Positions 18,701-61,240 of a DNA stretch of 64,000 nt are shown one piece after another. Each line of letters begins with the position of its first letter. The stretch's first letter is position 1. Made by a program: the position numbers and the translations under genes. The DNA is from Trichoplax sp. H2 (Eukaryota), in contig NOWV01000107.1 in assembly GCA_003344405.1 (NCBI GenBank), positions 1 through 64,000 of the forward strand, written 5' to 3'. The notes under the pieces were generated by a model that worked only from the letters and a program-made list of their open reading frames with translations, ran no database searches and was not told the DNA's origin.

Positions 18701-20360
18701 ATCCAAGACCTTTTGTAAATATTGCCTCTACAAGAGTTATTTTGATAATAGCATTAAATATATGCTTTAATAAATCTCTCCACTAGTAAATAAAATATTT
18801 TGATTTAAGCTAAATAGACGGCGAAAACTATTTTATTATCTATTCATTATAGTCTACAATTACATTATGCCGGCAAAACGCATACCATTTACAATTTATA
18901 CATACATTCTTTTTAAGTTTACTTGTCAAGTTGAAGGACTATCAAATATTGTATATTGATACTAGAATTCAACCGTTAAAATGAAAACATGAGTCCTGAA
19001 AGATATTTCTCATATAGAAATAATTTTATTCTACCATGTATCTGCTCTAATAATAACATTTTGTTGGGCTATTGTTATCGGAGGCAAAATTTGGCAATTA
19101 GTAAGGTATCAAGTTGCAAACATGCGACTGATACAAAGCGTTGATAGTTTTTTTTCAAGAAGATGAAGTTACAGTAATGTAGTCCATACAGGATTCTAAC
19201 ACTTGATATGAATTATACATAATTAATGGAACACATCTACATTTTCTTATCAACGGCGCATTAAAACGTTGGCTACAATGATGGTGACAGTAAAAATAAG
19301 CAACAGCCTATAGCTCAAACATTCGTCCACTTTAACGAAAGCATTACTATAAATGCAAATACTAGCTCTATATTGACGGCGGCGTAGTAATGACAAAAAA
19401 ATGTCCATGATGATAGATGATAGCTACTTGATTTTATAATCAAATAGTCCAAAAGCTTACTACTCATATGCGAAAGCATATCGCTATATATCAATGATAT
19501 ATAACAAAAAAGTAATGGAGGACTTTAATTTCGATATGTATTCCGATGCGTAGTCATGCAATACAAATTGCGTACTTTTACTTTGTAATATACATGTTAG
19601 AGCATTTACACTTGCAGCAAGACTTAAATGAAAGACCTATTAGCATCTTGCTAGACAGGTTCAATGACTTAGGTATTGTACACATTTTCATACCAAGAGT
19701 ATGCCAATTCGCTGAAGAGCCGTAATAAGGATATACATAGAGGAAGATAATATAAGGTAGATAAAACTACAACTATAGCACATCATGCCCATGAGTTGGT
19801 AGAGAATGCACATAGCAAGTTCAATAAAAGTAAATCAGCAGACGTGACATTAGTAATTTAGTATTACGCATAATAATAACGACTAAACTAGAATAGAAAT
19901 ACGCATTTACATCATTCATAACACAACTTAGCATTGTCTTTCGAACACGAGATATTCATGGCTACATCGTGAAGAAACGTGAAATAAAACGGTTGAAAGC
20001 CATTTCCAGAAGCAATAACAATAAAAATTTTTACTTCTAAAGTATAAAGTATCGTATAGTATGAATATAATTATTAATACGCGTATAGTACCGCAAGTCA
20101 ACAATAATACCAATTACGTTGCTTGTAATTCATAAGTTTTACCGTAATATAGATCAAAGGAATGTACAATAAAACTAACTAAATGACAAATTACAGTATG
20201 ATTATATAGTAAAGGAATATAAGTTACAAAATACCTGAGGCAATTCTCCGATGCACATGTTAACGCTAGCTAGTGTGCGATCCAAAATGTCAACAGGAAA
20301 CTTTTGATTAAAATCGAGAAGTCTCTTTGCTTCATCCTCGTTGGGTAAGATAATGGCCAT
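12739..20360 (-). CDS. XPO1: Exportin-1 (CRM1), >25 short exons
   Basis: N-terminus [100 protein letters not shown]-terminus [24 protein letters not shown] (stop 12739-12741). Confidence 0.97.
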
Positions 20361-23300
20361 CCTTGATTTTATCTTAAGCGTAGCTATCTCGTAGTTTTGA
20401 TGAAATCGTAATCACTCTAAATATTATGATAGAAGATTATCACTTTACATGCTGGTCAGAGCTTCAATTAAGTTGTCAAAGCCGACAAAGAATTACAAAC
20501 TTGACGTTAAGCAGCTCACTAACATGCAAGAGTAGGTAAAGCTTACTATCTGCGTATTGCAACAGCCTTGCCAGCTATGTACAGTGCAGCGATCAATGTA
20601 CATGCTTATTAATATTAATGAGTGTAATAATTATTCGCCGATACGCTTAAACAGTATAAACCTAGTCGAGACAATGCTATTTTTGGCTAAACGATTAAAT
20701 TCTAGGATAATTCGTTTACTCTCGCAACGCCTATTTGTTACAACGTATGATACCTGGTTTATTCTATGATGTTAATTACCGAAATTTTACTCTAGCAATA
20801 AAATAATTAGTAACCTGATAAAATAATCATATTTTCCTTTGGATGCAAATCACTTTCGCACCGTATAATCTCTTGCATAGGAAACTAATGTATGCTACGA
20901 AAGCGATCGTTGTAAAGAATGATGGTTAATAAATACCAGGTTTGAGATCCATAAGGTGCTACGACAATATCTACAGTTGGTAGAGAGCAAATAGATTCAG
21001 GCATGAACAAATTGCATACTCTGGTTGCAAGCTTCGTAGCACAGCTTGATATCATTACGAACTTTTAGCCATTACCAATGACACTAAAACAGTGTTTAAA
21101 ATAATAGCCACTGAATAGTCACACATATGTTGATACCCGACTAATGGGTGATTTGTATTTATATAGTGACTCCTACACTAAGTTGTCGCAGATCCTGTTT
21201 AGGGCACAAAACCTGCAAAGATGTCGACTACATGCAGTACTTGTATGAAACGAATACTGATACTGCACGATATGTTTATTTAAGATTTCAATTCAGTTTA
21301 TAACCATAACGTAATATCATTCATTAACCCACCCCACCCCCATCGAAAGAAATAACATTATTAATACTATATTAAATATCATGGAAAGAATTTCAATATT
21401 ATTCCAAGAATAATAACATTCAGGTAGGTATTTCACTGTAATAACAGGTTTTGAGGGTTACTGTATAATGATAAGCATATCAACCAAGGGTTAAATTTGT
21501 TGTCAATTCCTATAATTGATGGAATACACAGTATGATATAGTAATATGTATTCATAGTCACTATAAGTCATATCTGCACCGTTGAAGTAGGCTGAAGAGA
21601 ATATTACACGTTACAACTCTTACTCTGTGGACGCGATCATTAGTAATTGAACTATAAAAATCTTAACGGTCAAGCGGCGATATCTTACGAAGTGTCCAGT
21701 CGAACTTATTATGCAATCATAACTAAAGTGCGTGATATTCAAGCAATCTACATCAAGTACCGTTACTTACACGATCTTAGACGTAGACAGCAAACTATAA
21801 ATCAAATCATCTACGTCAATGGCACATATTTTATTACAATTTAACTACCATTGGCAAGTTATTTCTGTTCCTGTAGTCTAGTAGAGTAGATACAGTACCT
21901 CAATTTGACAGCTTTCAGTATTGGACTGATGCTGCTAACCGTAATTTCTGATGTTTAGGATAAGATTATCATCAAGGTGGATGACTTTGCATCGGAAAAA
22001 CTAATAATATCCGTAATTAAAATAACCTCTTCAATACTTTAATACTACTATCTTTACGTAAACTCTGATGGAAATGCAGCATATTAATAACACTCGATTG
22101 CATTAAAACTGTAACAACTCGTATAGTGCAGATGGTGCAGACGTAAAACTACCAATAGAGTGTCCAATAGCTAGATAGTAACTGATATATATTAACCCTA
22201 TTATAATAATAATTATTGTATGAAATTGGAGAACGATCGGTGTACCATACTGGCAAGTACAGTACTTCTTCAATCCGATATTGATATTAACTCATCACTG
22301 TACTGCAATGATATCAATAGCTCATGGATTAACAATTTTGTTAACACTCTTACTGTACAGTATAAGTCTAACATTTTATGATAATCATTAATTAACGTGT
22401 ATATCAATAAATTCAATGCTATCAATCAGGCATCGGTACATCAGTGGATTAATAACACTATAACGTAGTAGGGCTGGGTGCATTATGATTTGGAATTCAA
22501 TAAAAATTAATTGAACTATATTATCGGCAGGCGATACTACTGACCATTAATGATTTATCTGCAGTGGCTTCGAAGCAATAACAACGACAACGTTCTACTT
22601 AAACGCTAACTTCAGTTACCTCGATCAAATGATAGTCATTTCAATTTCTGCATAATCAACTTGTTAATGCTTAGTACTGCATCGATGATAAGGAGCAAGT
22701 TGGAATTATGCCAAATACAATCGATTCAACTACAAGTTTTACTTGTTTCATGCTCAAATGTAACAATCCAGCATTGATTTCCTTCATCATGGTAGTCATG
22801 ACTTCACGGTCGAGTCATCACTATCTGCTCACCATCATCAATTGCAACAACAATGACTACAAGTAAAAAGATTCAACGAGCTTGTGATGAAAAAAATTTG
22901 AAATGTTATTTCCGGGGATACCAGAAGTACAATCGCAATCATCATGGACAGTTATTTTCTCCAATGAATGTCAGCCATAAACGAACGCTACGTTATGATG
23001 AATAACTGCATTCTAAGCCTATATCGGTGTCATGGACTAAACAAATTGATAATGGTCCAAATTGAAATCAAATTACCAATTGGAAAATCGTTGTTGGAAT
23101 GTCAAGTGAAGTACTGATACTATGGCATCCTACTACTGTATTGAGAAGAAGCATTTGCTCCTTATCATAGCTGCTAGAGCTGATCGACACCAAAGAACGT
23201 CATCAAACTACTCGTCTTCACTCGATATTTCCATGCATTTAACACTTGCATATCGTTGAATTGGAATGAATGCAATATGCCACCACGCAAACTACATTAT

Positions 23301-23425
23301 TGACACTAGGAAAGTAAGATTAGCAACGCAAAAGTGCTTACTTTCAATCACTTATTGTCATTGCCATACTGTACAGTACTGTAGATGGGTCATTAGGAGG
23401 AGTCATGAACGTACAACATACTTAC

Positions 23426-23800
23426 TAGGTTGAACTGTCTTTTTGCGCGCTCTGGCTTTATCACTTTCAAGATTGGTGAACGTCTCTTATCCAAATTCAA
23501 CTCAATTTTCAAGCCAGGCTATTTTGCAGCTTGTATCTTTACAGCGTAAGCCAATCCTCTGGACAATTTAGACGTAATAATCCAGCAAATACCTATGGAA
23601 TAGTGTTGCTTTTTTCTCTTTCTGGACTGATCACTGACTAAAATTCAACTCGATGACTGATATTGTGCCTACTGGAGCTTTGAAAATTGCTTACTGAACT
23701 CGACCAACGACTGCCTTAGTCTTTGTGTTCATGGCTTTGGTGCAAAGCGCAAGCTCGTCAAACTGGCTTGACGGGTTTTAAATACGTGCGCGCGCGCATT
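23426..23800 (-). promoter_or_regulatory. Predicted XPO1 core promoter (TATTTAAAA 23784-23776 after a GC-dinucleotide run) and two 5' non-coding exons (~23755-23695, 23592-23426)
   Basis: Minus-strand donors GTAAGC (23694) and GTAAGT (23425); acceptors TTCCATAG (23593) and ATTTAG (20417, just 5' of the ATG exon). Confidence 0.5.
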
Positions 23801-23969
23801 GCTTCCATTGTTTTCGTTTTGTCCGGTACAGCAACGTCATTCAAACTTTTCATTTCATTTCGGTTATGTCAGCTCTAAGTTGGCACATGTGCAGTGTAAA
23901 TGATGACACACCAAATATGGACTTTCAAGATACATACAATACAGTATGCAAATAATTCATAGTTATTAT

Positions 23970-25760
23970 TGATTAGCTCTACAGTACTGTCATCCTCAGT
24001 CAGTCAAGTCAAGAATAGTAAAGACTGTAAACTTGCAGACACTACGCTAGTGTTACTCTACAGTATTGTACTGTAGACTGTACAGTACTGTACTGTACGG
24101 TGCTCTCCAGTAGACATGTTTATTGACCGTAAGATTATTATCGACGGTTGGTACATATTTACCGTACCGCCAACGTCAATACAAGAGATACTACTGGACA
24201 GTATACAGTATTCCACTATAGTATTAGTATTAGTCTAGGCTTATAGTGTACAGTATTGGAAATATCATTTGGAATGACTTTTATGCTCAAGATGGACGAC
24301 ATCCATGACTTCCATCATGATGCAGCATTATTGCTACATGATTCGTACTCAGAGAGATTTCTATGCGTATCTCGAAATAGAGCGACTCAAGACAATCATC
24401 ATCGACATCGACACTTCCATAGGGCTGCCTTAGTGAAAGCTATGAACGCAGTCTGTCCTAGGTCATTTGAATTACTGACTACTATACTGAGAACTCAGTG
24501 AGATGTAAAAAGTCCTTTAGACCTTATGCCTTCGAATCAGGAATGCCTTCTTCTCACGTGTTGTACCGCTATACTACACTGTACAGTACAGTACAGTACA
24601 TCATAATGGTCACACTGTACTGTACTGTACTGTACTGTATGACTCACATACAGTACTGTACAGTACAGTACAGTAGCACAGTACAGTGTACAGTACACCA
24701 AAACTGCTTCTGCATGATACTGTAGATTTAGTAGTGTACAGTACAGTATAATGTACAGTACTCAGTGACGACATAGATTTGATACGACTACAGTACGTCA
24801 CGAACAGAAAATTCAAACTGTTTACGCGATTATTCGAACGTGAAAGAATAATTAATTACGCTGTACAGTACAGTTAGTGTTGTTGCGGAACACTAACTAC
24901 TGTATAGTACTATACTTTGAAATTAAAGGCGAAAATAGTATTATAATCATCATCACTTGAAATACCGGTTACGCCGGTGGAACTATGGAATCATAGTACA
25001 TTGAAGATCACCATGGTGCGCAGTGACGTAGTCACTTTTAGGTTAATTTAAAGATGAAAATTTTTTCTTTGACAGCAAATCAAATCCTGGATGTCATGTC
25101 GAAAAAAAATGACGATCAAAACTAAAAATTGGATTGAGTTCATCACACCGATCTGACTTGTAGTCTACAGTACAGTACAGTACAGCACAAACTGCACATG
25201 TACCCGTTGCTTGTTGTAGGCGGTACTGCTGTAGTAATGTCCGATCGTCCGCATTTCCCTCACCTTCAGTGCTATACTTACAGTGCATACTGTACTGTAC
25301 GTACTGTACTGTACAGTACAGTACTGTACAGTAGAATTGCGAACAGGGCAAAATTACGAGACGACAAGGCACGATTGCTCATTGGCCTGATCCCCACGAT
25401 AAACAAAAGAAACTAGGGAAAATCGTGGAGATCAGGCCAATAAGCATTGAGCAATCGTGTCTAGTTGTCTCGTCATTTTGCCCTTCTGAACATCAAGTTA
25501 AAATCTACAGTACAGTACTGTATGGAAAAGCCGGAGTTGCGGTACAGTACAGTATAGTACACTAGTACAGTACAGTACAGTACAGTACAGTACAGTACTG
25601 TAGTTGTACTGTACTGTACAGTACAGTGGCTGATTATAATAATTTGAAAAGAGAGGCACGTGATACCTTCTGGCTATTGTTGTTTTCGGCCTTGGTATGT
25701 CTAGTTTCGAACGTGACGGAGTGCGCTGTAAAGCCTGTACAGTGTACAGTACAGTACAGC
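23970..25760. repeat. Largest CAGTA/TACTG pentamer cluster, with mixed-orientation runs
   Basis: Runs at ~24060-24100, 24580-24760, 25165-25185, 25290-25333, 25507-25625 and 25735-25760. Confidence 0.92.
25345..25484. repeat. Long imperfect inverted repeat (~56 bp arms, 21 nt loop)
   Basis: AGGGCAAAATTACGAGACGACAAGGCACGATTGCTCA-TTGGCCTGATCCCCACGAT pairs with ATCGTGGAGATCAGGCCAA-(TAAGCAT)-TGAGCAATCGTGTCTAGTTGTCTCGTCATTTTGCCCT. Confidence 0.93.
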
Positions 25761-27821
25761 TCAAGCGTCAATTTACCGGATTTACCAGTTATTTGCGCAA
25801 GTTATTTATACTCGTGCTAGTACCGTAATGCCTGTATTGTACGGTACAGTGCGATACGTGAATTTCCAGTCTCACATCCGGTGGCCGGTACCGGTACCGG
25901 TACCTGTGACCTATATCCAGTTACTTGATTCAGGTTGCATAGTTACGGTACTCCTGTTTTTTTTTCTTCTACCCTCCTCCCTATGATCATGGAGCGTTGA
26001 ATCTTCTTCGTCTGCCTTCCTGGATACTACTGTTGTAAAGCTGAATAGAAATGACTTTAGCAAGCAATAACTACTAATATGCTTACTAATTTATTAACTA
26101 ATCAGTTGGGGCCGATCGATAGGACCAACCTCGCTTTAAATATCCCATTCGATATTCGATATTAGCGCACAGTATTACTGAACAGTACTGGATTCAGTTG
26201 TCGTGATTGAAGTAGCCCAATATAGTTATTACAACATTCAATATCAAAAGGCAGCAAAAACTACAGCCTATTGTGCAATAACAGCGTAAAGTACAGTATA
26301 TGGAGGAGCCGCTCGATTTACTCATTTCTTCATATGAGATATTGCAGTGGGTTCTGTATACTGTATTTGCACATTGGGTATACTTTACACGCACTTACAG
26401 GTGTACAATGGCGACCTGTACAGTCATTAATCATGAAAAGAAATGAATGGATAAACTAAAACCAGTCAAAAAAAGTGATTAGGTATTATTATTTTTTGTC
26501 GAAAAATTGAATAACTGCTTAATCATCGCGTTACAATATATCGTATGTAAGACTTTCATATTCATGCGCTGCTTTCAGTATTTGTCATCTTTATTGATGA
26601 CCAACGAGTTCGGTTACCAAATACCCGTCTAGTTCATGAATAAGAATAAAATATCATTTTTATATCATTCAATTAGAAACGTATAGTAAATATATAGTGG
26701 ATAATATTAATCAATTATAAATTAATTATCAATGGAGCTTAAGTATACTCCAACCTCGAAAATATCGACCATTTCTACATGATATATCTAAATTAAAAAT
26801 CCTCTGTACTCAACCATACATACGCGTACAGTAGTTCAGTCTAAAGCACATTTTAGCCTTATTAGGTTTCCATAGACGATAGATAACACGTATACCCGGT
26901 CAAACCCCAAATATTAGTCTAAATCGTCCATACTAATAATAAAATATTGTTCTAGTCTTCAAGAAACCTATTTTTAACTAAAAAAATTTCAAGCACACCT
27001 TATCAAGGGAGTTTGAAAAAAATAGGTGCTAATCTTGGAATATCGATCATTTCAAGGTTCTGTGTTTATGCAATTTATTTAAGCCCAATCTGAAATGTTG
27101 TTTATTCCATTCCAATATACTACCGGCAACAATCTATTGTCGCCAAAAATATTTGAAAATAAGATTGGTTATACCGAGCATAAAGACAATATGGGTATTT
27201 TCATCGAGATGGAGTAAAGTTGAGGTAGAAGCACATTCTTATATGATTTAATGTGTTTATTGGATACTTTTCAAGTTTAGATTAGATATACTTAAAAGTG
27301 TTTGCAACATTATACGATATAATAGTGCTAACTTAAAAACACTATAAAGTAAAGACTTTCAAACTGTAATAACTGATCAATATTTATAAGGTAGAAGTTA
27401 TAGTGTTACTGTATTACGACATAGAACATGATGGATCGAGTTTCCACCATAATTTTGATCGTAAAGTGACGGTAAATCGTCTAGTCATGGCACAGTATAA
27501 TACTATACTGCTACTCGATGCGAAAGAATCACATTTTCTTCATAAATAACATATTAAAAATTGATTATAGCTAAAAAAAATGACAAGAGACGATTTGTAT
27601 CATATTCTAATGAACACGATATTATCGACTATATTTGATCACAGCCTGTACAATACTTAAGCATCAATTTATAATATTACTACAATATATGTAAAGTTAT
27701 AATTATAAAGATATTCATAACCATATTCTTACACGTCTATAAATTAATTAAATAGCAATAGCTTGAAGTACATACGCAAAATTAATCATCCAATGCCAAT
27801 AATTTAGCCCTAGATAGAGAA

Positions 27822-27876
27822 TGTAATGGTGTACCATCATTTGTTGTAATGGTGTACCATCATTTGTTGAAATGGT
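27822..27876. repeat. 23 bp tandem repeat, ~2.4 copies
   Basis: TGTAATGGTGTACCATCATTTGT twice, plus a partial copy. Confidence 0.9.
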
Positions 27877-28908
27877 TGATCAAATTGTGTAGATACTCAT
27901 TCTTCTACACATGATAATTAATTAATCATACCATAGGCCCCAATAGTAGATAGTATAACTTTAAAATAAGTAAGATTGACAGAGTAAAATTGCATAATTA
28001 AAGATTTGTTATTAAAGCCACGAAATAGGATTATCACCCATGACTGATTACATGCGTAGAAGTAAGCAATTTTAAGAGAATGGATATAAGTCGATATAGA
28101 CCGCCTATTGTTAATACATAGTTACCTAAGATTGTATGAGAATAGTTTAACTTATATGTTAGACAATAAGATAATTGTTTATAAATCGTGAATTTAGCAG
28201 AGTAATTTAGATAGTCTAATTGCAGCTAGATAGTACTTGGTTGTTGTAAGACCAGTCTAATTTATGTAATAAAGTGTAGTTTACAAGAAACTGTAGTTCT
28301 TGTTTTATTTTTTTGAAGACACTTTATCATATACTACTAGCCTGTAATATATTAAGTCTCTACTTAGTTGGTGACTAAAATCACATAATTAAGGCAAGAT
28401 ATTATGAATAGGTAGGATACATCCTCATTAGGACTACTTTATCATTAAAATACATCTTATATATGCCATATCTGCATATTAAACACACATTCATATTGAG
28501 AGAGATAGAAAGAGTTTTACACATAGACATATAGATCCAGACACGCATCTATGCTGTATACACTATAAGAATTTTTAACTTATAGAATAGATATGATAAC
28601 GCCCAAATAATTGAGGAGAAAAATTATTTTTATTGCACTATGTATAATATAAATTCTATCCATTCTACCATTAGTATACATGCAATCGTAAAAACCTAGT
28701 AGTAATTGATTATTATTTTACTTAAGGCCCACATTGGGCTTATATGAGCATTAGCTCATACTCTTTATAATTATAAGACATATCATAGAAAGAAAAATAC
28801 GCCTCATAACTATACAGTAATTTGCCGTCATTTATGACTTGACAGTTAAGAAAAATTGCAGATTTTTACTAATTAATTTCTGCCTGGGTAAAAGACTGAG
28901 AATGAGTA

Positions 28909-29730
28909 TTACACATTTGTAACATTTATCTCAGTAGAATTTTGGTGGTTATGTGTAGACGTTAAATCGCTGTCGGTTTTATCTTTAGGTTTATGCCAAC
29001 GACGATGAGATGCTAAGTTAGCTGGGCAATTAAATACTTTCCCACATTCGGGACATTTGTGTTGAACATGCACAATTTTAGGACATTTATGCTGAGCCAA
29101 ACCTAACGGATTTGGAAATGTATTCTTACATAGTTGACATATGTATTCGTTGGGGATACTAGAACTTTTTTTACTAATACAACTATCAGCGTTCGATTGG
29201 ACGGTAATATCACTATCCGTAGGACTACTGCTACGGCATTTTCGGAACTGGTGCTCAAATTCTTCTTTTGGACAACTTGGATAGACAGCATTAGGTGATT
29301 CAATTTTAGAGGACAATTTTTCAAACTTTTGACTTGTTGGGAATGAAGTAGAGACAGGCGAGATTGTTTTCTCGCATGTATTCATTGGTAAAATAGACGA
29401 AAATTGGCCAAGATTGTGTAAAAAGGCATTGTCCAATTGAAGTTTAAGAGCTTGCTGCTGATTTGCCATCATAGCGGTGGCAGCTGCAGCAGCAGCGGTA
29501 GCGGCATGATGTTGCAATGGATATGCAGATGATCTATAAAGTGGACTATCAAGTAAAGGCATCATACCTAGCCCTGATGGTGAAAGCATAGGATAATTAT
29601 ATTCTGGATAGGTATTGTTGAATAAAGCAGCTTTACTTGGATTTTCATACATATAGTTGTTAACATATGGAACCGATTTGAAAGGATGATATAAATAAGG
29701 TCGATCTTTCATTACATAGACTTTCGGCAT
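28909..29730 (-). CDS. INSM1: INSM/IA-1 (Nerfin/EGL-46) family C2H2 zinc-finger transcription factor, apparently single exon, 273 aa
   Basis: [53 protein letters not shown] matches INSM fingers 1-2; SNAG-like start MPKVYVMK at ATG 29730; Ala/Gln-rich middle region. Confidence 0.92.
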
Positions 29731-29854
29731 CTTTTCTTTTCTTTTTCGTCGGTTTTTTGTAAATGGACAAAAAAATTGATTCGTAGTACGTTCACTATAC
29801 GTGAATGAAACAAGTAAACGTAGATTACAGTAACAATAACTTGATATCAAGGGG

Positions 29855-30000
29855 TTAATATAGCGCCCAACCAGTTCCTGTGCTAGCTATTTTTCTTTTC
29901 TTTTCTAATCACAAGCTGCGGATGTCGAAAAGAGATGCAATGCGGGAGGAAAATAAAAAAAGAAAAAAATTGAATATGAACATTAATTGACCTTTGCACT
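29855..30000 (-). promoter_or_regulatory. Putative INSM proximal promoter: GGGCGC-TATATTAA (BRE/TATA-like) and DR1 element AGTGCA-A-AGGTCA (29988-30000)
   Basis: Motifs read directly ~125-270 bp upstream of the ATG; function is inferred. Confidence 0.5.
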
Positions 30001-33000
30001 AACAGATACTATGATCTCCTTTCCTCTCTTATTTCAATATTTTGTTGGTTTTACATAGATAACACGAGGAAGAGATTATCAATACCATCATCATTATGGC
30101 CTATAAAAAATTCACGCTTCCAGTGTATGCTATCTCTTAGATATAATTATTCGCGGTAAGGTAGGATAAGAATAAGTAACTAGGCTAGTTAAAATAACTG
30201 ATATATCTACACAGCTAATTAAGTTTCCATCTATTTCGGTTAATAAATATTCAATTATTGACCTACCTCGCTAATTTTGAACGATCTTGATGAGGATAGA
30301 CTTCCGTAGAACAGTAATAAATCAACTATTCTGTTAAAAGAGAAAATAAGAAAAAATGAATTGTTAAAAGTAAGTGATACATTCTTCTTTAGAAAGACCT
30401 GGCGACAAATTTAGAATTTTACATTAAATTGGTATTGGCTTTTTCCAAAAAAGATTTCTCTATTTTCTTTCTTATGTATTGTCGCCCCCGCCCATTAAAA
30501 ATAATAATAGTTACACCGACAAGATTGGCAATTTTTATGACTACATTGATAGTAAACGCATGATTGAATTTCCATTTGAATAGGTCTACCATAACAACAA
30601 TAGCTACAGCAGAAAATTTTCATTTTATTTCATGCTATTCAATAATTGTGTCACGCTTGATAATTTTAAAATATTACCTTGAAATTAAAACGTTGGGTTT
30701 TTTGTTACTATTGTCAGGCTGATATTACTCATTACTAATTTTCGCTTTCGTCAGCTTAATTGTGATAGAAATGAATTCTCTTTTTCTATCCATCTTCATC
30801 TATTGCATTTTACCTAATTTTTTTATCTATGTAAAGCCAACACTAGTCCGTTATTTGGATAAAACTATCAATTTTTACTACAAGAGGATGATGATTCTAT
30901 TAATAAGATGCTGTGATTTATACTAATCTCTCGACAAAATGTTAATTTTCTTTTATAGGTCGTTTCGTAACTAGCGATTACATAAATTAATTATTTCTTA
31001 AATTTAAAATTTAAGCTACAGTATTCCATATTAGTAGAAGAATCCAATTCGTTGAACCTGAATTTCAATCACGGTAATGCTATCAAGGATAGAATTACGA
31101 TACATCGAAATTAAGATTGTGGGTATGCTTAGGTGGATTATTATAAAATATTATAGAAATATTCTAACCTTTGGATTATAATATAAATTAAGTGTGAATT
31201 TATACTGTATTAACTAGAAATTGAGATAGTACATCAACAGCCTTTCATTAAATTTGTAATCGTTGATAGCAATGCCTGCAATATGGGATACGGCACCGGT
31301 ATATTTTTTACTTAAACAAGTTTATAAAACACCTTATCTTCCCTTACCTTTCAGTGTGAGTGATATTAACAAAATCCAGTTTAATAAGAATTTTCAATTT
31401 GATTTTTTCCCAGTTTATCTGTAACAGTAGTAGAAATATCGAGAAAATCAATTGAAATGCTTAATAATAACCATGAAAATAAGAATTTCATTAAATTTAA
31501 TTATAAGGTAGCGACTGAAATATATAGCAAGAATTAAAAGAAAAATTAAATAACTAGAAGCTAGTTAGCAATAAGTAGTAGAATAAGTTAGAAATAGAGA
31601 ATTTCTATTCTTGCAAACGTTAAGGAAAAAAAAATTGACCCAGACCTAGTCAATCGAACTGGAGTAGAATCTAATCTGTCGCTGAAGGATGCAAGACGCA
31701 ACTGATCGAAAAATAGCGAAGAAGGAGTTTATTAAATGATATTGCTATTGATAATTAGTGTGACTGGATATCATCATTCGTATTGTTATGGTGACGATGA
31801 TGCCTGTAATTATAACGAAATCAAAAAGAAAGAGAAAAATACGCGAGATATCCTATAGAAGGAAATCAGATCTACCAGGTGGGAGAAATTCTTTACATTA
31901 AATTGTGTTTTCCATAAGTTGAGCATTACTTTGTGATTATTTCTCTCCGCCTACTTGTTATTGTTATTTTTCCATTTGGTCCTAATTGTGCAATACCTTT
32001 ACCAAATTTATTCTAATCATGACATGCTATAGAGGAGTTGTGTTTTAATAGATGGAGTTTGCTTAGAAATAAATCAATTCTAAACAATACCAACTGACGA
32101 TGGTAAAAAAAATATGTTGAAAAGACTAGAATAATAGTAGGTGACGAGTTGAGAGAAGTATTGACACTAATTGAACTATAGGATGACGACATTATTATTA
32201 GGGGAAATAAAAAAAAGGAAAAAATAGCTTTGGGATAAAAAAAAATACGTATAGTTATTGTTGAAGTAAATACATATCATAAATAATGTAATAGAATCAA
32301 AATATTCGATTGAAGTCTACAATCTATATTTATAGTTTAATATACTCTATAAAGCTATATAGTAGATTGTGTAACAGTCAGTAACTCTTGCTATCGAATT
32401 TTGTAATAAAGTTGGCATATACGCTAATATTAAAATTCAATAATTTCAAAATTCTACTATTAAACAATATATGTACATTATAGACATTGTGTGTCGACAA
32501 ATATCTACATGGGTTGTATTATATTAGTTAGAGAATGTATTTTATTATATGTATGTATGTATGTATATTGTATATTTTTACAAAGAATGTGATGGAATCA
32601 AAATACTCGATTAAAAAATCCACAATTGAAATATTAATCTAAATTTTGACCAACAAAATGCGTGAGTTATACCCACTCTAGGAGTAGTGTAATAGAATCA
32701 AATGCGTTTTATCGATTATTATGTTTTGTAGATATTTTAACCTTCAATACTGATAAATTTATTAAATGGAATATATTTAGATTTGTTCATGTTTTCGTCC
32801 TTGTTAAATTACATTGATGTTCATTGGAAGATGAAAAGAGTCAATTGATTTCTATAGGCGTTATACCACTTTGAATTTTTACCTAACGTATACTTATTGT
32901 AGATTATATAATATTAAATTGATCATATCCAGCTCAATTTGGATATTATTCCTCTATCTACATGTCTATACTAATGAATAAATGTAATTTAAGCACATCA

Positions 33001-35902
33001 CATCATTAGGTAAGAAAGGGTAAGAAGCTGGAATACTACATTTGTATCTCACCAGTTTTTTTCTCTCTGTCTTTCAATAATATCAATTATATGTATATAT
33101 ATACATTTATACAACATAGATATGTAAGAATTCTTGGGAAATTTAAATTTTGATTAACCATATATTTTTAATTAATGATAATTGTCGTCGTCATGCAAGC
33201 AAACAGTACCAGCTGGAATTAAAGCCTTTCACAGTATGATAGAATAATAGCTATTTTATTTATCCTGAAAAATAATATCATTAGGGTTATATTATATATT
33301 TCTATCTATGACTGCCAGACTTATGCAACCAATCAGCCATAATATTATCATCATTATCATTTGGATACTGTCTCGACCGGAGACGTCCTTACGTTGGATA
33401 GAAAGGCACGATAATATAGTCATTCATATTCAACATCCGTCATATTTTACTCTTGCCGGCAAAGCATTATCTTCTTCCTCACGATAAATAATAAAATCCA
33501 ATACAATCGATCTATCGCTATTTGTGTATTTATTTTTCCTTTCTTTAAGTTTACTCGCGATTTAAAATGTCTGCACATAATGTCTGAATAGTCTTAAAAT
33601 AATATAGCGTCGCTATAACATTACCTGTACAGTATTTACTTTATGTTAGTTAGTTCGGTAATGTATAATATTTATTCTGATTTTAAAATTTCTATTTTAA
33701 AGTCTACACTGGCATAGTATTGAATACAGCGGCTTAATGTAGCCATCGATTTACGTTAAATAAATTAAAATGGTCAATTCTACTATCCAGCTGTAACTGG
33801 TAAAGTTATGGGATATCACTCTCCACGAAAGGTATCGTTGATGATATCTGTACCATTGACATACTTTTATATCTACACGGCTATAGTTTTTCAGGTTATA
33901 CATGAAATATTTGCTAATTTACTATACTATACTCACTAATATTATTGTATTATTGTTATCAAAGATCATACAAATTCAGGTGATTTTTAGCATTACTCAT
34001 TAATAAGTGAAATAAGAGAAAAAATGTATCGAAAATGTCAAGATAATTGTTATTTAAAGCTGAGATTTTATACCATAGACAACTAAAAGTTGATGGCAAT
34101 AGAAATAGAATAAAAAAATATTTTATTCACTGGAAATGTATACAACTCATTATTATCCATTCAAATTCTATTATAATTGCTAAGAGAAGCATAATAAATA
34201 ATTTAGTAAATGTCCATAAATGCTCATCAAATTAGATAACTAGGGAGTGATAGCACAGAATCAATTGTCAAAAAATAAAATTACTAACTGTATACTCCAA
34301 ATATCAATAGATTGATAGCTTCAGTTGAGCAAGTACGCCTAAAATTGCTGGAAATATGATTTATTCTTGTATCAATATTGGTATAATGTATTTAGGACAT
34401 AATGAAAATAAAATGATAGATCCTGTGATATTGGTTTGATTGACAATTGAGGTGGCGTTAAATTAAATTTATTTTTTCTCGTTTTTTATATATCTAGTAA
34501 AAGCTAAGGATAAATATTATCATTCTTTATAGGATGTTGCTTGTCATGTGAGTACAATTAGAATTATAGTCAACCATGCTTGAAAAAAATTAGATATGGT
34601 AAAATTTTATAATACATTTTATAAAAATAGAGCTGCTCAATAGATCAATCTATCCATGTCCGATAAGAAAGGAACCAAGGGGAGTGATGTACGTTGTAAA
34701 AATATGGAGAATTACGGATATCTAAGGGACAATTTCATCCAAGTAGAAGATGGTTTGATTTTTACTTTTTCCACGCATGAAATAGATCAGACGGTAATGA
34801 TACTCAAGGGCTAAAAGAAGGTAGAAAATAGAGTAGTCCTAACGTGATACCAGTAAGTAGTCATTTTGTTTTAACTTGACGCTAAACAAATGAGAGACGT
34901 AAAAAATCTCTCCCACTCTCTACATATTAATAATTTCCGTGGTTAGAACAGATTGGGCTTGGTTAATGTTTTTTTCTTAATTATGATACGTATTGATAGT
35001 AACGACTCGATAGATACCGGACCAAAATATAACTATTGTCGTTGACAACATTCCTGCATCGTACTAAATAATTGCAATTGTGTTGTTGGTATCCAAAGAA
35101 AATAAGATAAAGTCAAAAATAAATCATTTACTGATGTACTTTGGACTTATTAACGTCATGTTTTTCAACTTGACAATTGTACTCAGAAGAATAGAATATA
35201 ACAATTAGCCATGTCGACTTTATTTTAATGTCTATGGACTGATTTGATAGAAAGTTAATGATGGCTATGTAACAAAATCATCCTAGCGGAAGAAGCGCTA
35301 TTATCTTCTTATTCGTACAATGGCATGACCATCTAGAAGGTTAGTAAATGCCAAAGGATGTACCATACAAAGTAGAATCAGTTGTAAATGAATTGGAGTA
35401 AAATAGATTGTAACGCTTTATCATTCATATTTTAATAACAACCAGGTAAAGGAGGTGTGGAGGATTTTCCTATTTACTTCTATTGAATTGAACTTCAATC
35501 TCGCTCGGGATTATTTTACAAACTTTACCTTTAACTTTTTATTTTTTTTCACCTCTTTCCTGATTAATTGACATATCTATTATATTCGGTTGGAAACCAT
35601 TGGCTAGTCTTCATATTTTTTGAATATTAATTAAACGTATTAGCTGCTATTCTTTATTAGCATCTAACTGGAAATTTTTCAACTTTCTTACAGCTGAACT
35701 TGACGACGATGCTCGTACTATTGATTGAATCGATAATATCGACGTAATCAAGTAATTTACTTTTCTACACTAGATAGTATCCAAGTTTTCAATATTCGTG
35801 TTTTATTGGATGATAAATTACGTCTAATCGGTGTCATGGCTTTAGCGGATAGTAGAAGATGAGAAATAAACCATCCTATTTCCATTTCTTTCTAGATCAT
35901 TC

Positions 35903-35949
35903 AAGTGGTGATTCGATTGGAAGTGGTGATTCGATTGGAAATGGTGATT
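35903..35949. repeat. 18 bp tandem repeat, ~2.6 copies
   Basis: AAGTGGTGATTCGATTGG twice, then AAATGGTGATT. Confidence 0.9.
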
Positions 35950-38900
35950 GAGTTACTATTGAGGCATCAAGAATAGTATTTTTTAAAGATTTTATTTTTT
36001 ATTGCATGACATTAAAATTGTTATGACGATTGAAGTCAAGAAGAGTTGATGTGGAACAAAATGGATCATCTCCGGTTTAACGATATTTTAAAAGTTGATG
36101 TTATTCATTTTTAGCCTGAATCTGTCATTGGATTCAATTGCTATTTCTACATCGAGAATAAAATGTCAATATACTGTCGACATAGGCCGAGAAATTGTTA
36201 AGAATAGTTTTACTTTTCGACTTTGTCTATTAAAATGTCAATTTTCATTGTAGGATAGTATCCATACAATATGGAATGATTCGAATAATTAGTTAAACCA
36301 TAGCTTAGCTTACTCCTTGATCACCTTGACATGACAAGTATTTAAATAGCTAAATAAAGAATTATGCTATTTACATGGTTGGCTTGACTACTTCATTTCT
36401 CACCTAATTTAGACTGCGATTTTTTCACCATTCTAAATATTCCATTGGTCCACTGGTCATTCTTTCTTAGATTTAACGGAGACTTTGAGTCAATAAAAAT
36501 CCATGACAATATGCTAGGACAATGTAGATAGGCATTATTATTAGTATACAGTTAAAAAATTGAAAATGTTATTCTCATAGAATGGATTATTCCACATTTG
36601 TAAAATGGAAGATTTTGATTTAAGCTATTGATATCCTAAACGGCATAGTTGCCTTAAAAAGAATAATAATGAAATATTCAAGCTACATCATCCATGGTTA
36701 TATATTCTATTTTACTGTCAAGGCGTTATTCTATGAGGTAAGAGATCAAGTCAGAACAGTGATAGTAAAATGGACTGAAAACCAAAACGATGACGTTTTC
36801 CTTCTTTACAATTGATCAATGCAGTCTATTAGGATATTGTGCTAGTTGATACTGATTCAGTAGATGATATTGTCTACTGGATATAAAAGCCATAATTAAA
36901 ATAATTTCACCACTATCGTTCAGAATTTCCAAGGCTGTTCAAAGGCTGTTGGTGCAATAACTGCATCATCCTAGGTAATATCGTCCTTGAAATAAACCCA
37001 ACTATTTTGACTAAACAACAAGATGAACTATGTTGATATAGAAAAGCGTGATCTTAATCATCCATAACATTATGGCAATTTAATAGGTATTCCATAAAGA
37101 CATAAAATTAATCAATATCGCCAATAAGACCCTTGATAAAAGAGATTGATTTTGAAAGGCGACAAAAAATCTGCGCATCCTTTCTTTACAATAAAAATAT
37201 AACGTATTAGCTATATTGTTCTAATCGACGAAAAGTATTCTTTTCTATCTGTTTATTCTGTCAAACAGTAATAGTAAACACATTTAGGAATTATTTCTAT
37301 TGCGATCAATGGATTCAATTCGAATTGAAGAATTGAAATGGAGTTAAAAAGGTGTTGAATTAACGCTTTTAGCTATAAATCGCGCTAGATTGTATTTTAA
37401 TAGGTAAAAAATATGCAGAGTTCATTTTTTACTCTATTCTAAAGACATCGAATGGAGTGAAATGGACGATCAAGTTGCAAAATTCAAAATTACATAGGAG
37501 TATGATGGTCAAGAGGATGGAACTATTTTATAGATGGATTCTGTAGGATATTGCTATGGAAAATAGCGACCATCCAATGTTGTATTACCTCTCTATTGCG
37601 CTCCCATTACTGCATACTCCTTTACCACTTTCATCCTTTCAACTTTCTACGTCTACAATAAATTGCCTATTTGCGCTTTCTTAGTGAATAAATGTCATCC
37701 TTTTATTGCCGTATTATTCCATATTGAAAAGTATTTTGATGGCGTATTATAGAAAGCATTCTTACTCAGTTGTTTTTTTACAGTAAAATGAGACTTTAAA
37801 TGATGAATTCAATTTGAATTATTTTTTCTTATCCCCATATTTTCTTGAACAACTATTTCAAGAAATAAAATGATAATGAAAGAATCCTGACAGTAGTATT
37901 CCACTTTGACCAAAGCATTATCGACAGCTATTGAAGTTAATTTAGAATAAAAATCGAGCCAAAAACAATATGAAATGTGGTTGATATTCTATTGAATCTG
38001 CTGCATCATTTTCAAAAATTAATATCGTATTAATTTATGTCGGTGGAATAAAATTAAGTCGTGTGATTCTTAACGTAATAAGGCATAATGAAACACTCTG
38101 ATGACAAATTCTCTACTATATAGTAGATTACTAGATAATAAAATGTGTAATATTGCCAAGGAATTCTTTTTAGTAGAAAATAAATGAGTAGATCGGAAAT
38201 GTTTAGTTCGATCAATATTACTCAGTAAATTAAAATCATAAAAACTACTGGCATCCCATTGAGGAAATTAAGTGTTATTATAATCGTTGTGCTTTTTTTT
38301 CACCAAGGATTGCAGTTCAATTTTTGCAATAAGTCAGCATTGCATTTTCCTCTATCGTCAACTCAATAAATATGTTAGAATAACTAAATAGTCCTGCTCT
38401 ATCATCATCGCCTAGAATCAATGTAGACAGAAAGAAATTAGAACGAGAAAAAGTGTAGAATGAATGTCCAAGCTTAATGTCTTTCTAATCATCTTATGAT
38501 CGATTAAGCGTATGTAACTTGTAGGGATCATTCATAACTCCATTCTAAGCTGCAGTTATCAAGACGTATCGAAAGAGAAAAGTAAAATAGCGAAGTATTG
38601 TCATTATGTACTTGTTTTAAACTTTCTATCTATTGAAATTTTTATTTTTTAAAGCGATAAAAAAACTAATTATTGTTTGTTTAATTTCTAGTGGGCAGTT
38701 ATTGAAGTCAAGGCGCGTTTGTATTGTGGATGAAATGAATATAAAGAATAGCAACAGCATTTCTCGGAAAAAAATCCACTATAATAAGTAGATGGGTTGT
38801 TCTAACCGATCTCAGCCAATAATAAATTAAAATTTTTGAAACACAAATGGTTAGACAGGAAGGCTTCTCGGACTTGATAATACAGGTTAGATAGTAATTT

Positions 38901-38961
38901 TGAAGTAGAGTGATTTTTATGAGGATGGAGCTTTAATAAACTCTTCTATATTGACTTGAAG

Positions 38962-39187
38962 TGGTACTAGGAATTGATTTTTGAAAATAGGAAATAATTA
39001 ATTTATTGCAGCTTGAAGTGGAACAAAGTGTACATCGTCTATTAACGGTTATCAGACTGCCCTTTTGGTTGAAAATGGTACTAGGAATTGATTTTTGAAA
39101 ATAGGAAATAATAAATTTAACGCAGTCTGAAAAGGAACAAAGGGTGCATCGTCTATTAACGGTTATCAGACTGCACTTTTGGTTGAA
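38962..39187. repeat. 114 bp tandem duplication, two slightly diverged copies
   Basis: TGGTACTAGGAATTGATTTTTGAAAATAGGAAATAAT...CATCGTCTATTAACGGTTATCAGACTGC...TTTTGGTTGAA at 38962 and 39076. Confidence 0.93.
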
Positions 39188-42100: not shown

Positions 42101-42929
42101 TTTTCTTTTTTGTGTGGCGAAGAAAATTCCTTACTACGCCCTTATTAATGGTAATTAAATAATAAAAAGTCTTACTGCCAGGTAGATACATTCGCGGGTC
42201 TTGATTCAATTCAATTTTACTACTGAATTACGAGAGAAAGGAAGCGAGTGTTGAACTTTCGGAGGCCGTATCACTAGTATGTATCATCTGCATTGGACTT
42301 TGTAAACTTTCTCCAGAAAGAACAACTACAGTAACTTCTCCAAGATCACTCTAAAACCCATAAACTTTTGTATCGAGATCCACAAAATTTTATATACAAC
42401 TTGTAATAAAAGTACCTGACAACGAAGTCATTTATTGCTAAGTTAAATACTAAAAAGATAGCATTTGCTGCTTTAAGAAATGCATAAAGATTTTTATTAA
42501 ATCCTTTAAAGCAATTTTTTGGGTGGTCATTACCAGGTGTATCATTAATAAGATCTACGATAGAGGCAGAAAAGTATGATGCAAAATTGATGGTGCTGTG
42601 TGCACGTGTTCGTTTTTAATCTACAGACTAAATACCGGAGGGAACAGCAGGCGATATACCGTCATATTTTTACTTTATTCTAATTGATCGCAATCGTTGC
42701 TATTACATTTCTAATACGGTTAGAATAATGATATGAATTTAATCGAACAACGATTATCATTAACTAGTTCATTTATGCCTGTAATGAGTGAAATAGTGAA
42801 TCAATAAGAAGTTGCAGGTGCTTGAATAATATCCGTACACCTTTAGGATTGTATGATTATCTAATTTAGTATGCTCTATTTGCTTGAGATGTACTACATA
42901 AGGTAGTAGTATAATTATAATTAAATATA

Positions 42930-55199: not shown

Positions 55200-55839
55200 A
55201 AGCAAGGGGAACGAGGACGGTCGTCTTGACGCGGCTGATTGGCTGAAATGGACTGGACTGGCCCAGCTGGTCCCTACCTATTGATTTAGTACGACATGCG
55301 TCGACGATGCCAGTCACAAGCTAGAGGGGGTGGGTGTACCCATCAGATAGACAGACAGACAGCTAACTTGCCCACTAGAGTCCAGTATGGAAGACCCGGT
55401 AGCAAACTGGATGGGGTGGGGAATGAGTATGGGAAAAAGAGGCAGGCCGATTCTTTTTTTTTCGACTTGTCCGTATGTCGATGTTGACAAAGAAGTAGAA
55501 TCTTATTATTTCACTGGAGTAGTTTTACTCACTCACCAATATACTGTATTGGACTAGTGAAAGCGTCTACCGTATTGTCTAAACCATCAGTTACTACTAG
55601 AAATAGAAAACTGGTCAAAATTTCTCCAACTTTAAGTAGTCGATGGCCTCTCGCCTTCTCATAGGCACGGATTGCCAGAAAGACGGCACTCTACTTTCCA
55701 GTACTATTCTGTACAGTGTACAGTACACACCTACAGTACCGTATTGTACTGTAGGACTATAGTACAAGCGTCAGTGTACGGTACGGTACAGTACCATAGT
55801 GAACAGTCTATACTCCACCGAAAGCAACAACATCGAGGA
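55200..55839. promoter_or_regulatory. Putative bidirectional promoter KLC/RRP36: CCAAT box (55238-55242), GGGGTGGG boxes (~55327, ~55413), CAGTA cluster (55700-55800)
   Basis: Locally GC-rich interval between divergent ATGs; motifs read directly. Confidence 0.6.
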
Positions 55840-60433: not shown

Positions 60434-60624
60434 ATCGTTCTAAATAAACTAATGCAATATATATATATATATATTTATATACATATTAAAACCAGGAAAT
60501 GATCTTGATATCGTCTTTAATTTATTCTTTCGATCAATCACTAATATACAAATTAAAGGCATAGCAATGATAATAATAATAACAATATACTCGTAAGATT
60601 ACGCCAAAGCGATAGCAATGCATT

Positions 60625-61240
60625 ACTGTACAGTATGTCGATTTTTAACTAAATTCTAAGATAAGAAATAACTAGTACAGTATATCTACTGCACGACTAT
60701 GGGCTATGCTAAAGCACTTGATGGCTGTGCATCATGTCAGCTAAGCTATATTATTACACTGTTTAATTGTAACAAATTTATTGATTACTGTCTATGACAA
60801 GAAAATACTGTTAGTGAATAGGAAGATGGTCAACGAGCTTGAAGTCAATGCGAGCATACTGACTGCTCCAAACAAATGATACAGTACCTGTGAAGATTCA
60901 ATGCAATTGGATTTAATTTCGGTGTCAATAATATGGATTGGGTAAACATACACACCTTGTCAAATAGATTTTTTTATGTTGGCATGAGACAAAATTGAAG
61001 ATGAAGAGACATCAATTAGACTTGCCACGATAGCTGAGAAGCAAAATCAGGCAATAACTGCAGGCAACCTGCAAACCTGCTGCAGCTCTACAGTACTGTA
61101 GGCTAATGCACGCCAGGAAAATACTGTAGCATGAAGGAAAGACTACCAGTACATACAATACATTGTACTGTAACACACACAGTACGATACACTGTAGGAG
61201 ACCCTTTCGTCTGGGCACTTTTACTGTACTAAGTACTGTA
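60625..61240. repeat. Dispersed CAGTA/TACTG units between MRPL11 and the SLIRP-like gene
   Basis: Examples: TTACTGTACAGTA (~60623), TACAGTACTGTA (~61089), TACTGTACTAAGTACTGTA (~61221). Looser than the other clusters. Confidence 0.6.

What the first reader, a model, noticed from the sequence alone, without database searches (positions are those of the whole stretch)
23970..25760. CAGTA/TACTG pentamer clusters coincide with housekeeping-gene promoters
Seen: dense clusters lie between CCT4/ARMT1 (7530-7785), just upstream of the predicted XPO1 start site (23970-25760), between KLC/RRP36 (55700-55800) and, more loosely, between MRPL11/SLIRP (60625-61240). By eye they are sparse across 26.5-43 kb, including the INSM promoter. 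Units flip orientation often, producing the palindromes CAGTACTG and TACTGTACAGTA, which simple slippage does not readily make. Inference: this could be a lineage-specific promoter mark, functionally analogous to CpG islands or DRE (factor binding, nucleosome exclusion or cruciform formation), that distinguishes housekeeping from developmental promoters. TRMT5 has only a weak signal, so the rule is imperfect.
Basis: partly seen in the sequence, partly recalled or inferred. Interest (0 to 1): 0.8.

Follow-up and report, generated by a model that had tools for sequence, protein, structure and literature searches.

The report
Known Trichoplax ACAGT promoter repeat islands
These five-base repeat clusters in front of everyday genes of the tiny sea animal Trichoplax were described in 2010; they are largely missing from developmental genes, and new units appear to be written one at a time into open promoter DNA, like the scars that jumping genes leave, although no such jumping gene was found.

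Summary
The clusters are real: 64 CAGTA/TACTG sites in 23970-25760 against 9.7±2.8 in shuffles. The genome is a Trichoplax placozoan. The repeat is the ACAGT microsatellite reported upstream of genes in 2010 (PMC2871265). This scan noted it before on other DNA of this genome (66 notes). The housekeeping contrast holds elsewhere in the genome: clusters lie upstream of 30 of 40 housekeeping genes, 11 of 55 transcription-factor genes (4 of 36 homeobox) and 2 of 20 GPCRs. RNA places the XPO1 5' end at the cluster, 3.6 kb beyond the ATG. Units are TA-C(A/T)G-TA, so a 'flip' is one base. Between allelic or duplicated copies, 13 of 14 five-base indels are exact modules, and 8 are not slippage copies. 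Copies of a young MITE show gains at three lone TA sites. Best reading: modules accumulate in constitutively open promoters, as Tc1/mariner-type excision footprints or as templated break repair, and slippage extends them. No matching transposon was found, and function (factor binding, nucleosome exclusion) is untested. Cruciform selection and 'part of a TE family' are not supported.

The parts
23942..26363 (.). Field of TA-C(A/T)G-TA modules in four sub-clusters (23942-24255, 24473-24902, 25168-25756, 26028-26363) with single-copy spacers; XPO1 promoter / first-exon region
   Evidence: counts; spacers match only self and allelic contig C103; 26.8 sites per kb in 23678-26400
23426..23677 (-). 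Non-coding XPO1 5'-UTR exon; AG acceptors at 23678-23679 and 23649-23650 imply a further upstream exon inside or beside the cluster
   Evidence: RNA contigs 23426-23651 (X19) and 23483-23679 (X20), each with 30 unaligned nt at that end; splice signals; the upstream exon is inferred
20417..23425 (-). XPO1 5'-UTR intron (GT donor at 23425-23424, AG acceptor at 20418-20417); 6.6 sites per kb
   Evidence: contig boundaries in 3 RNA runs
20235..20416 (-). First coding exon of XPO1, ATG at 20360, spliced in frame to the exon ending at 18727
   Evidence: joint 18727/20235 with CT..AC ends in 3 of 3 RNA runs; in-frame join; CRM1 repeat in a later exon
24789..24795 (.). Lone TACAGTA module, a bare TA in the allelic contig C103 and in DNA run X3
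   Evidence: table 4
24898..24904 (.). Lone TACTGTA module absent from the allelic contig (only 2-nt microhomology)
25346..25483 (.). 138-bp foldback element inside the cluster, a small dispersed family; flanks match at 7 of 9 bases (possible 9-bp target duplication, Mutator-like; inferred)
   Evidence: fold z = -11; 15 matches in G000
25566..25567 (.). TA at which the allelic contig C103 carries a 262-bp repeat-family insertion beginning CAGTGTG; empty in the window
7479..7809 (.). Module cluster in the head-to-head gap between the chaperonin (CCT) gene and ARMT1; 48 sites per kb
   Evidence: CCT RNA contigs end at 7475-7478
55699..55875 (.).
60624..61584 (.). Loose clusters upstream of MRPL11
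45430..46430 (.). TRMT5 5' region: raised density (10 per kb) but no cluster
26500..43000 (.). Cluster-free region around the C2H2 zinc-finger gene (28912-29730, minus); negative control

Best explanation
This is the known ACAGT repeat of Trichoplax, better written as stacked TA-C(A/T)G-TA modules. It marks promoters of broadly expressed genes, mainly as a record of their open chromatin. Shown: it sits at housekeeping 5' ends; modules are added one at a time at TA sites, including TA sites with no neighbouring unit, in either orientation; slippage adds some same-orientation copies. Inferred: the writer is a cut-and-paste element of the Tc1/mariner kind with CAG...CTG ends. It inserts at accessible TA sites, and each excision leaves TACAGTA or TACTGTA. 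Each scar adds a new TA target, so scars pile up where chromatin is open in every cell. Any later use as a binding or hub-forming element is possible but not shown.
For: Clusters (at least 6 sites in 200 bp; shuffled windows reach at most 5) within 5.5 kb upstream: 30 of 40 housekeeping, 11 of 55 TF, 2 of 20 GPCR genes (p=9e-8; housekeeping 3 kb vs TF 7 kb, 26 of 40 vs 12 of 55, p=4e-5). Density peaks 1-2.5 kb upstream of housekeeping domains and is flat for homeobox genes. Convergent 3' gaps in the window have 5.5 and 7.8 sites per kb against 27-48 in the two best-mapped 5' clusters. Middle base of GTAC-N-GTAC: A 374, T 335, G 28, C 23; adjacent units share orientation in only 289 of 483 pairs. 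In three allelic or duplicated pairs, 13 of 14 five-base indels are exact modules at TA, and 8 of the 13 are not tandem copies; p=0.02 against the local share of CWG among TA-N3-TA. Six copies of a MITE that differ by at most 2 substitutions in 173 unique bases show lone-TA modules in 1 of 6, 1 of 6 and 2 of 6 copies, so gains by parsimony, in both orientations. TACAGTA and TACTGTA are the two canonical Sleeping Beauty footprints (bioRxiv 10.1101/659086, passages). TA-CAGTG-TA and TA-CACTG-TA occur 71 and 74 times against 4-16 for four control words, as a one-base overlap of CAG and CTG overhangs would give (my inference).
Against: No element with CAG...CTG inverted ends was found around the 9 Tc1/pogo domain loci within 1.5 kb (58, 60, 78, 79) or in about 1 Mb of fetched DNA. 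Mariner-type families gave no match, but with no positive control. Wang 2010 calls the TEs scarce and inactive. The non-canonical Sleeping Beauty footprints TACATA and TATGTA are not enriched (428 and 454 vs 486 and 472 for TC and GA), and the fully filled TA-CAGCTG-TA is rare (3). Arrays are preceded by G (39% vs 20%) and followed by C (38% vs 20%), and 9 of 11 non-tandem events have at least 3 nt of microhomology, which fits templated repair equally well. Polarity rests on 3 sites in one MITE family; allele indels have no outgroup. Anchors are domain matches, not mapped TSSs, so neighbours' promoters can count.
Confidence: 0.4

Rival explanations
1. Self-templated break repair: breaks in open promoters are rejoined by microhomology-mediated end joining that copies five bases from a nearby module on either strand. 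Clusters then seed their own growth with random orientation and need no transposon.
For: G-before and C-after bias of arrays; all 3 polarised gains are at GTA, and 6 of 8 non-tandem allele indels have at least 3 nt of microhomology; no CAG-ended element found; similar mixed arrays in metagenome contigs of GC 0.30-0.71. The repair pathway is recalled, not from a call.
Against: 2 of 8 non-tandem indels have only the TA as microhomology. Insert length is almost always exactly one module or 5+7 combinations, whereas templated insertions are usually more varied (recalled). It does not explain why this one word, identical to a known footprint, seeded thousands of loci (2604 matches of a 19-mer).
Confidence: 0.25
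2. One reading: a selected, multivalent promoter element. A placozoan factor binds the dyad GTAC(A/T)GTAC, opens housekeeping promoters or gathers them into hubs, and the central base is free because the site is symmetric.
For: Housekeeping bias; central A/T tolerated while G/C is rare. Kim 2025 reports a motif at loop-forming housekeeping promoters shared by four placozoans (PMC12221973, passages). Chimaera recovers a repeating ACAGT motif as predictive of Trichoplax Micro-C structure (PMC12817080, section 61). Wang 2010 proposed a binding site.
Against: Module number, position and orientation differ heavily between alleles (16 indels vs 17 substitutions in 1.9 kb). 10 of 40 housekeeping genes lack a cluster, including 7 of 14 ubiquitin-conjugating genes. 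Modules also accumulate inside MITE copies. Chimaera ties Kim's motif to ACGG, not ACAGT. No factor is known from the papers I read. Selection alone does not create modules at bare TA sites.
Confidence: 0.22
3. An ordinary microsatellite: slippage plus A/T point changes, which survives in non-coding promoter DNA.
For: Same-orientation neighbours exceed chance (60%, p=9e-6); long pure runs exist; 5 of 13 module indels are tandem-compatible; the two orientations differ by a single base.
Against: 8 of 13 module indels and 3 polarised gains have no neighbouring unit to copy. Interruptions of TACAG runs are TACTG in 32 of 44 cases. Long non-coding gaps around TF and GPCR genes lack clusters.
Confidence: 0.08
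4. Cruciform-forming palindromes are selected or drive the flips.
For: Arrays can fold as single strands (-37 kcal/mol for 24575-24700; longest perfect arm 12 bp). Central A/T differences between alleles are frequent (3 of 17 and 6 of 25 substitutions; 0 of 23 and 0 of 16 in two other comparisons).
Against: Perfect palindromes are not favoured: 4 of 36 four-unit arrays (25% expected at random), 72 of 176 two-unit arrays (50% expected). Some central differences may be alignment effects of shifted indels.
Confidence: 0.03
5. The clusters are internal parts of one dispersed transposon family.
For: A ~450-bp MITE family (97 matches) carries 15-17 modules per copy and sits in one proteasome promoter. 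Two small repeat families touch this cluster. Kim 2025 reports Mutator insertions in these promoters.
Against: Both spacers tested in the XPO1 cluster are single-copy, and modules vary among MITE copies, so they were added after insertion.
Confidence: 0.02

Closest known systems
(ACAGT)n microsatellite of Trichoplax adhaerens (Wang et al. 2010, Biol Direct 5:18, PMC2871265; parts 1-2 of 4 read, covering the whole findings text)
   Same: Same unit and genus; dominant repeat; 54% and 85% within 1 and 5 kb upstream of genes; enriched at translation genes; proposed as a binding site
   Different: Wang treats pure tandem runs. Mixed orientation, single-module gains and the contrast with homeobox and GPCR genes are not in the text I read
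Placozoan promoter-hub (GP1) motif and Mutator TIRs (Kim et al. 2025, Nature, PMC12221973; passages, methods section 31, supplement search)
   Same: A motif at promoters of housekeeping genes, absent from cell-type-specific genes, linked to DNA transposons, conserved across placozoans
   Different: The motif letters are only in a figure that I could not see (supplement files 2 and 6 were unreadable). Chimaera identifies it as ACGG-type. ACGGTAC-type words are about 5-fold enriched in my housekeeping set and co-occur with clusters but are far rarer
Repeating ACAGT motif from the Chimaera Hi-C model (PMC12817080; passages and section 61)
   Same: Same word and species group; predicted to affect chromatin folding
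   Different: In-silico only; no promoter-class or origin analysis in the section read
Sleeping Beauty (Tc1/mariner) canonical excision footprints TACAGTA / TACTGTA (bioRxiv 10.1101/659086; passages)
   Same: Identical sequence, TA duplication plus three bases, two orientations from one mismatch
   Different: Here stacked in thousands of loci; no matching element found; non-canonical footprints not enriched
CpG islands and Drosophila DRE/M1BP housekeeping promoter elements (recalled, apart from the mention of M1BP)
   Same: Sequence signature that separates broadly active from developmental promoters
   Different: No CpG contrast here (observed/expected near 1 throughout); no fixed position; no known binding factor

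Membership tests
Trichoplax (ACAGT)n microsatellite (Wang 2010) | ACAGT unit in a Trichoplax genome | tested here: met
   sequence; window protein clusters at 90% with T. adhaerens XP_002117232
Trichoplax (ACAGT)n microsatellite (Wang 2010) | Very abundant genome-wide | tested here: met
   1304+1300 matches of a 19-mer, control 0+0
Trichoplax (ACAGT)n microsatellite (Wang 2010) | Lies upstream of genes | tested here: met
Trichoplax (ACAGT)n microsatellite (Wang 2010) | Enriched at translation and kinase genes | not tested
   other housekeeping families were used; only MRPL11 in the window bears on it
Placozoan GP1 promoter-hub motif (Kim 2025) | Match to the published motif | not testable with these tools
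   logo is a figure; no letters in text or readable supplements; Chimaera points to ACGG
Placozoan GP1 promoter-hub motif (Kim 2025) | Housekeeping promoters, not cell-type-specific genes | tested here: met
   30 of 40 vs 11 of 55 and 2 of 20
Placozoan GP1 promoter-hub motif (Kim 2025) | ATAC and H3K4me3 peaks, loop anchors | not testable with these tools
   only assembled contigs of runs were offered
Placozoan GP1 promoter-hub motif (Kim 2025) | Motif lies in Mutator TIRs | tested here: inconclusive
   spacers single-copy; one foldback with a 7-of-9 flank match; MULE domain not found in G000
Tc1/mariner (Sleeping Beauty-type) excision footprint | TA becomes TA-CAG-TA or TA-CTG-TA | tested here: met
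   13 of 14 five-base indels; 3 polarised gains
Tc1/mariner (Sleeping Beauty-type) excision footprint | Both orientations about equally | tested here: met
   1075 vs 953; 387 vs 330 relative to gene direction
Tc1/mariner (Sleeping Beauty-type) excision footprint | An element with CAG...CTG inverted ends flanked by TA, and its transposase | tested here: inconclusive
   none at 9 domain loci or in ~1 Mb; one family has 25 ends reading TA-CAGTGTGAACC but its other end is not an inverted copy in the one full copy seen; about 1% of the genome was read
Tc1/mariner (Sleeping Beauty-type) excision footprint | Non-canonical footprints (TACATA, TATGTA) accompany the canonical ones | tested here: not met
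   this feature may be element-specific
CpG island | CpG excess against a depleted genome | tested here: not met
   CpG observed/expected 0.82-0.96 in the finding's bins, near 1 across the window
DRE-type core promoter element | Discrete site at a set distance from the TSS, bound by a specific factor | tested here: inconclusive
   sites spread over 0.3-2.4 kb and vary between alleles; TSS not mapped; binding not testable

The most novel reading that the evidence does not exclude
The dominant repeat of placozoan genomes is a pile of transposon excision scars, still being written into constitutively open promoters. The scars have become a CpG-island-like signature that an architectural protein now reads to build housekeeping promoter hubs. 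The TA-CAGTGTG-ended repeat family, present in one allele of this very cluster, could be a non-autonomous member of the writer family.
Probability: 0.15. Interest if true: 0.85.

Novelty: already known. Interest (0 to 1): 0.4.

Why it matters
The repeat and its promoter position have been in print since 2010, so the headline is a rediscovery. Two things remain open: what writes it and whether anything reads it. The allele and MITE comparisons show a fast, sequence-specific gain process at TA sites, which makes the origin testable with existing placozoan genomes. If these are footprints, module density is a long-term record of chromatin accessibility in an early-branching animal, and a route by which a mutational by-product can become a housekeeping-promoter code.

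Tried and rejected
Paper searches: (Trichoplax, chromatin loops, Mutator, motif, promoter; motif words; nothing relevant among 20 listed), (Trichoplax+ACAGT+microsatellite: 2 papers, one relevant), (placozoa, transposon, footprint, promoter, Hoilungia: 6 listed, none proposes footprints in its title or abstract start). Najle 2023 (PMC10580291, passages) had nothing on the repeat. My statement that the footprint reading and the homeobox contrast are not in print rests on these searches of an open-access library only. My first reading, that this is Kim's motif, was dropped after Chimaera tied that motif to ACGG and Wang 2010 was read. A 12-kb DNA search for more allelic contigs did not even find itself and is uninformative. 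The 41-aa first XPO1 exon alone hit nothing in Pfam or PDB; its assignment rests on the RNA joint. An off-frame translation was discarded. Two other dispersed repeats (about 440 and 520 bp) showed no module indels. The joint table was cut (202 rows unseen), so the first exon and TSS are not located; depth inside the cluster is inflated by contigs from other loci and was not used. The 84-codon ORF at 24250-24501 has no Pfam match. Rows dropped before the gene count: 1 of 14 LSM and 1 of 20 Fox genes (contig edge); for UBC only the first 14 distinct non-edge genes from 44 matches; 20 of 147 GPCR matches, taken at even steps. L093 and L101 may be one gene (92-96% alike, both negative); without one of them the count is 30 of 39. 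Both ends of further copies of the CAGTGTG family were not seen, so whether it has inverted ends is open.

Full report
Observation. The window has 186 CAGTA and 154 TACTG sites. In 23970-25760 there are 64 against 9.7±2.8 in 300 dinucleotide shuffles; 7530-7785 has 15 vs 3.5 and 60620-61240 has 16 vs 2.8 (0 of 300 each); 55695-55800 has 5 vs 1.8 (6 of 300). 26.5-43 kb has no cluster, though single units are 1.5-fold over chance, and the TRMT5 5' region is raised but unclustered. The description is accurate.

Organism and genes. The zinc-finger ORF at 28912-29730 clusters with a Trichoplax adhaerens protein; the genome is 94.9 Mb in 1128 contigs. Pfam confirms ARMT1, CRM1/XPO1, TRM5, L11 and a TCP-1 chaperonin; 3 of the 11 pieces scanned had no match, and one had only weak coiled-coil hits. 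The XPO1 ATG is at 20360, joined in frame to the next exon by a joint seen in 3 of 3 RNA runs. RNA contig boundaries and splice signals define a UTR intron at 20417-23425 and a UTR exon from 23426. Two contigs stop at AG acceptors with 30 unaligned bases, so the first exon lies right of 23680, at the cluster (inferred; the joint table was cut). The chaperonin RNA ends at 7475-7478, and the 7.5-7.8 kb cluster follows directly. Convergent gaps carry 5.5 and 7.8 sites per kb against 48 and 27 in these two 5' clusters.

Test elsewhere in the genome. I located genes by Pfam domain, fetched 115 upstream regions and called a cluster at 6 or more sites in 200 bp, above the maximum of 5 in 30 shuffled windows. 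Within 5.5 kb upstream: proteasome 12 of 13, LSM 11 of 13, UBC 7 of 14 (30 of 40); homeobox 4 of 36, Fox 7 of 19 (11 of 55); GPCR 2 of 20. Fisher p=9e-8; giving TF genes 7 kb and housekeeping genes 3 kb still gives 12 of 55 vs 26 of 40, p=4e-5. Density peaks at about 12 per kb 1-2.5 kb upstream of housekeeping domains and stays near 3-4 per kb for homeobox genes. The positive TF genes look like broadly expressed classes (PBX, FoxK, FoxO, FoxJ, FoxN; labels recalled, not tested). Limits: anchors are domains, not TSSs; neighbouring promoters can count; gene density differs between classes.

Anatomy. The unit is TA-C(A/T)G-TA, so reversing a unit changes one base, and the two palindromes arise wherever opposite units touch. 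In 831 kb, the middle base of GTAC-N-GTAC is A 374, T 335, G 28, C 23. Neighbours share orientation in 289 of 483 pairs, more than chance (p=9e-6) but far less than slippage predicts. Perfect palindromes are not favoured (4 of 36 four-unit arrays). One mixed 22-mer occurs at 345 sites in the genome and in at least 106 metagenome stretches; of the 80 listed, 40 have 20 or more sites per kb, at GC 0.30-0.71. So the sequence type is not confined to placozoans. Two spacers of the cluster are single-copy apart from the allelic contig C103, so the cluster is not a piece of one TE family. It does contain a 138-bp foldback repeat, and the C103 allele has a 262-bp repeat insertion at 25566.

How modules change. 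Across three allelic or duplicated pairs, 13 of 14 five-base indels are exact modules at a TA, and 8 of the 13 are not copies of a neighbouring unit; a fourth comparison, the 323-bp tandem duplicate, had none. Local composition alone would give this with p=0.02. For direction I used a ~450-bp MITE family with 8-bp target duplications and TAGT ends (hAT-like by recalled criteria). Six copies differ by at most 2 substitutions in 173 unique bases, yet show lone-TA modules in 1 of 6, 1 of 6 and 2 of 6 copies, two CAG and one CTG. By parsimony these are gains, and they arise faster than point mutations.

Mechanism. TACAGTA and TACTGTA are the canonical Sleeping Beauty footprints. The balanced 7-mers with CAGTG and CACTG (71, 74; controls 4-16) fit the same end chemistry (inference). 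Insertion into accessible DNA would explain the housekeeping bias without selection. Against this: no CAG-ended element at 9 Tc1/pogo loci or in about 1 Mb, no excess of non-canonical footprints, and a G/C flank bias that suits microhomology-templated repair. One lead remains: 25 of 39 CAGTGTGAACC sites in the genome follow TA (controls 0 and 11), and they largely coincide with the family inserted in the C103 allele. The other end of the one full copy seen is not an inverted copy. I put footprints at 0.40, templated repair at 0.25, a selected binding element as primary cause at 0.22, and the rest at 0.13. Origin and later function are not exclusive.

What is known. Wang et al. 2010 (PMC2871265) report ACAGT as 78% of pentanucleotide repeats, with 54% and 85% within 1 and 5 kb upstream of genes, enrichment at translation genes, and a proposed binding role. 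Kim et al. 2025 (PMC12221973) describe housekeeping promoter hubs with a conserved motif tied to Mutator TIRs; I could not see the logo or two image-only supplements, which bear on whether their motif overlaps this one. Chimaera (PMC12817080) lists repeating ACGG and ACAGT motifs and assigns the first to Kim's element. Earlier notes of this scan describe the same repeat on other contigs and first gave me the 2010 paper and the footprint idea; I tested both here.

Verdict. Function is untested. Interest 0.4.

Noticed in passing
window 227-2429 (minus): 18S and 5.8S rRNA genes at the contig start, about 2 kb from the end of the chaperonin gene: an rDNA array border next to single-copy genes.
   Followed up: no
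window 25346-25483; L002-L009: Foldback family with about 55-bp arms (z = -11), several dispersed copies, possible 9-bp target duplication; MITE or hairpin RNA source.
   Followed up: partly
L002:352-615 (G000:C103), empty site at window 25566: 262-bp allele-specific insertion bounded by TA; belongs to a family of at least 40 partial matches, 25 ends in the genome reading TA-CAGTGTGAACC; candidate non-autonomous element.
   Followed up: partly
L067:2609-3057, L008, L293-L296: Young ~450-bp hAT-like MITE with 8-bp target duplications, GGACG-type repeats and 15-17 internal modules; L009 is an empty allele. Possibly related to the ACGG motif of Kim 2025 (untested).
   Followed up: partly
window 25984-26465: RNA contig in one run (X14) beyond the cluster with no long ORF; possible divergent non-coding transcript.
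   Followed up: no
window 56048-56704: Two tandem copies of a 323-bp unit (92% alike) in the head-to-head gap before RRP36; also a 114-bp duplicate at 38962-39187.
   Followed up: partly
window 18728-23425 (minus): The two long first introns of XPO1 are covered by continuous RNA contigs in three runs, suggesting abundant unspliced or retained-intron RNA.
   Followed up: no
L107, L164, L172; L033, L103, L115, L159: Two further dispersed repeats (about 440 and 520 bp) with TG...CA-type ends near TF and GPCR genes; the first ends in a short hairpin.
   Followed up: partly
L178-L186: Single-copy pogo/Tc1-domain ORFs without inverted ends nearby, several with long open frames; possibly domesticated, and candidates for a module-binding protein (speculation).
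   Followed up: partly
L187-L266 (metagenome contigs): Mixed-orientation TAC(A/T)G fields, some over 100 sites per kb, in contigs of widely different GC; other eukaryotes may have the same process.
   Followed up: partly
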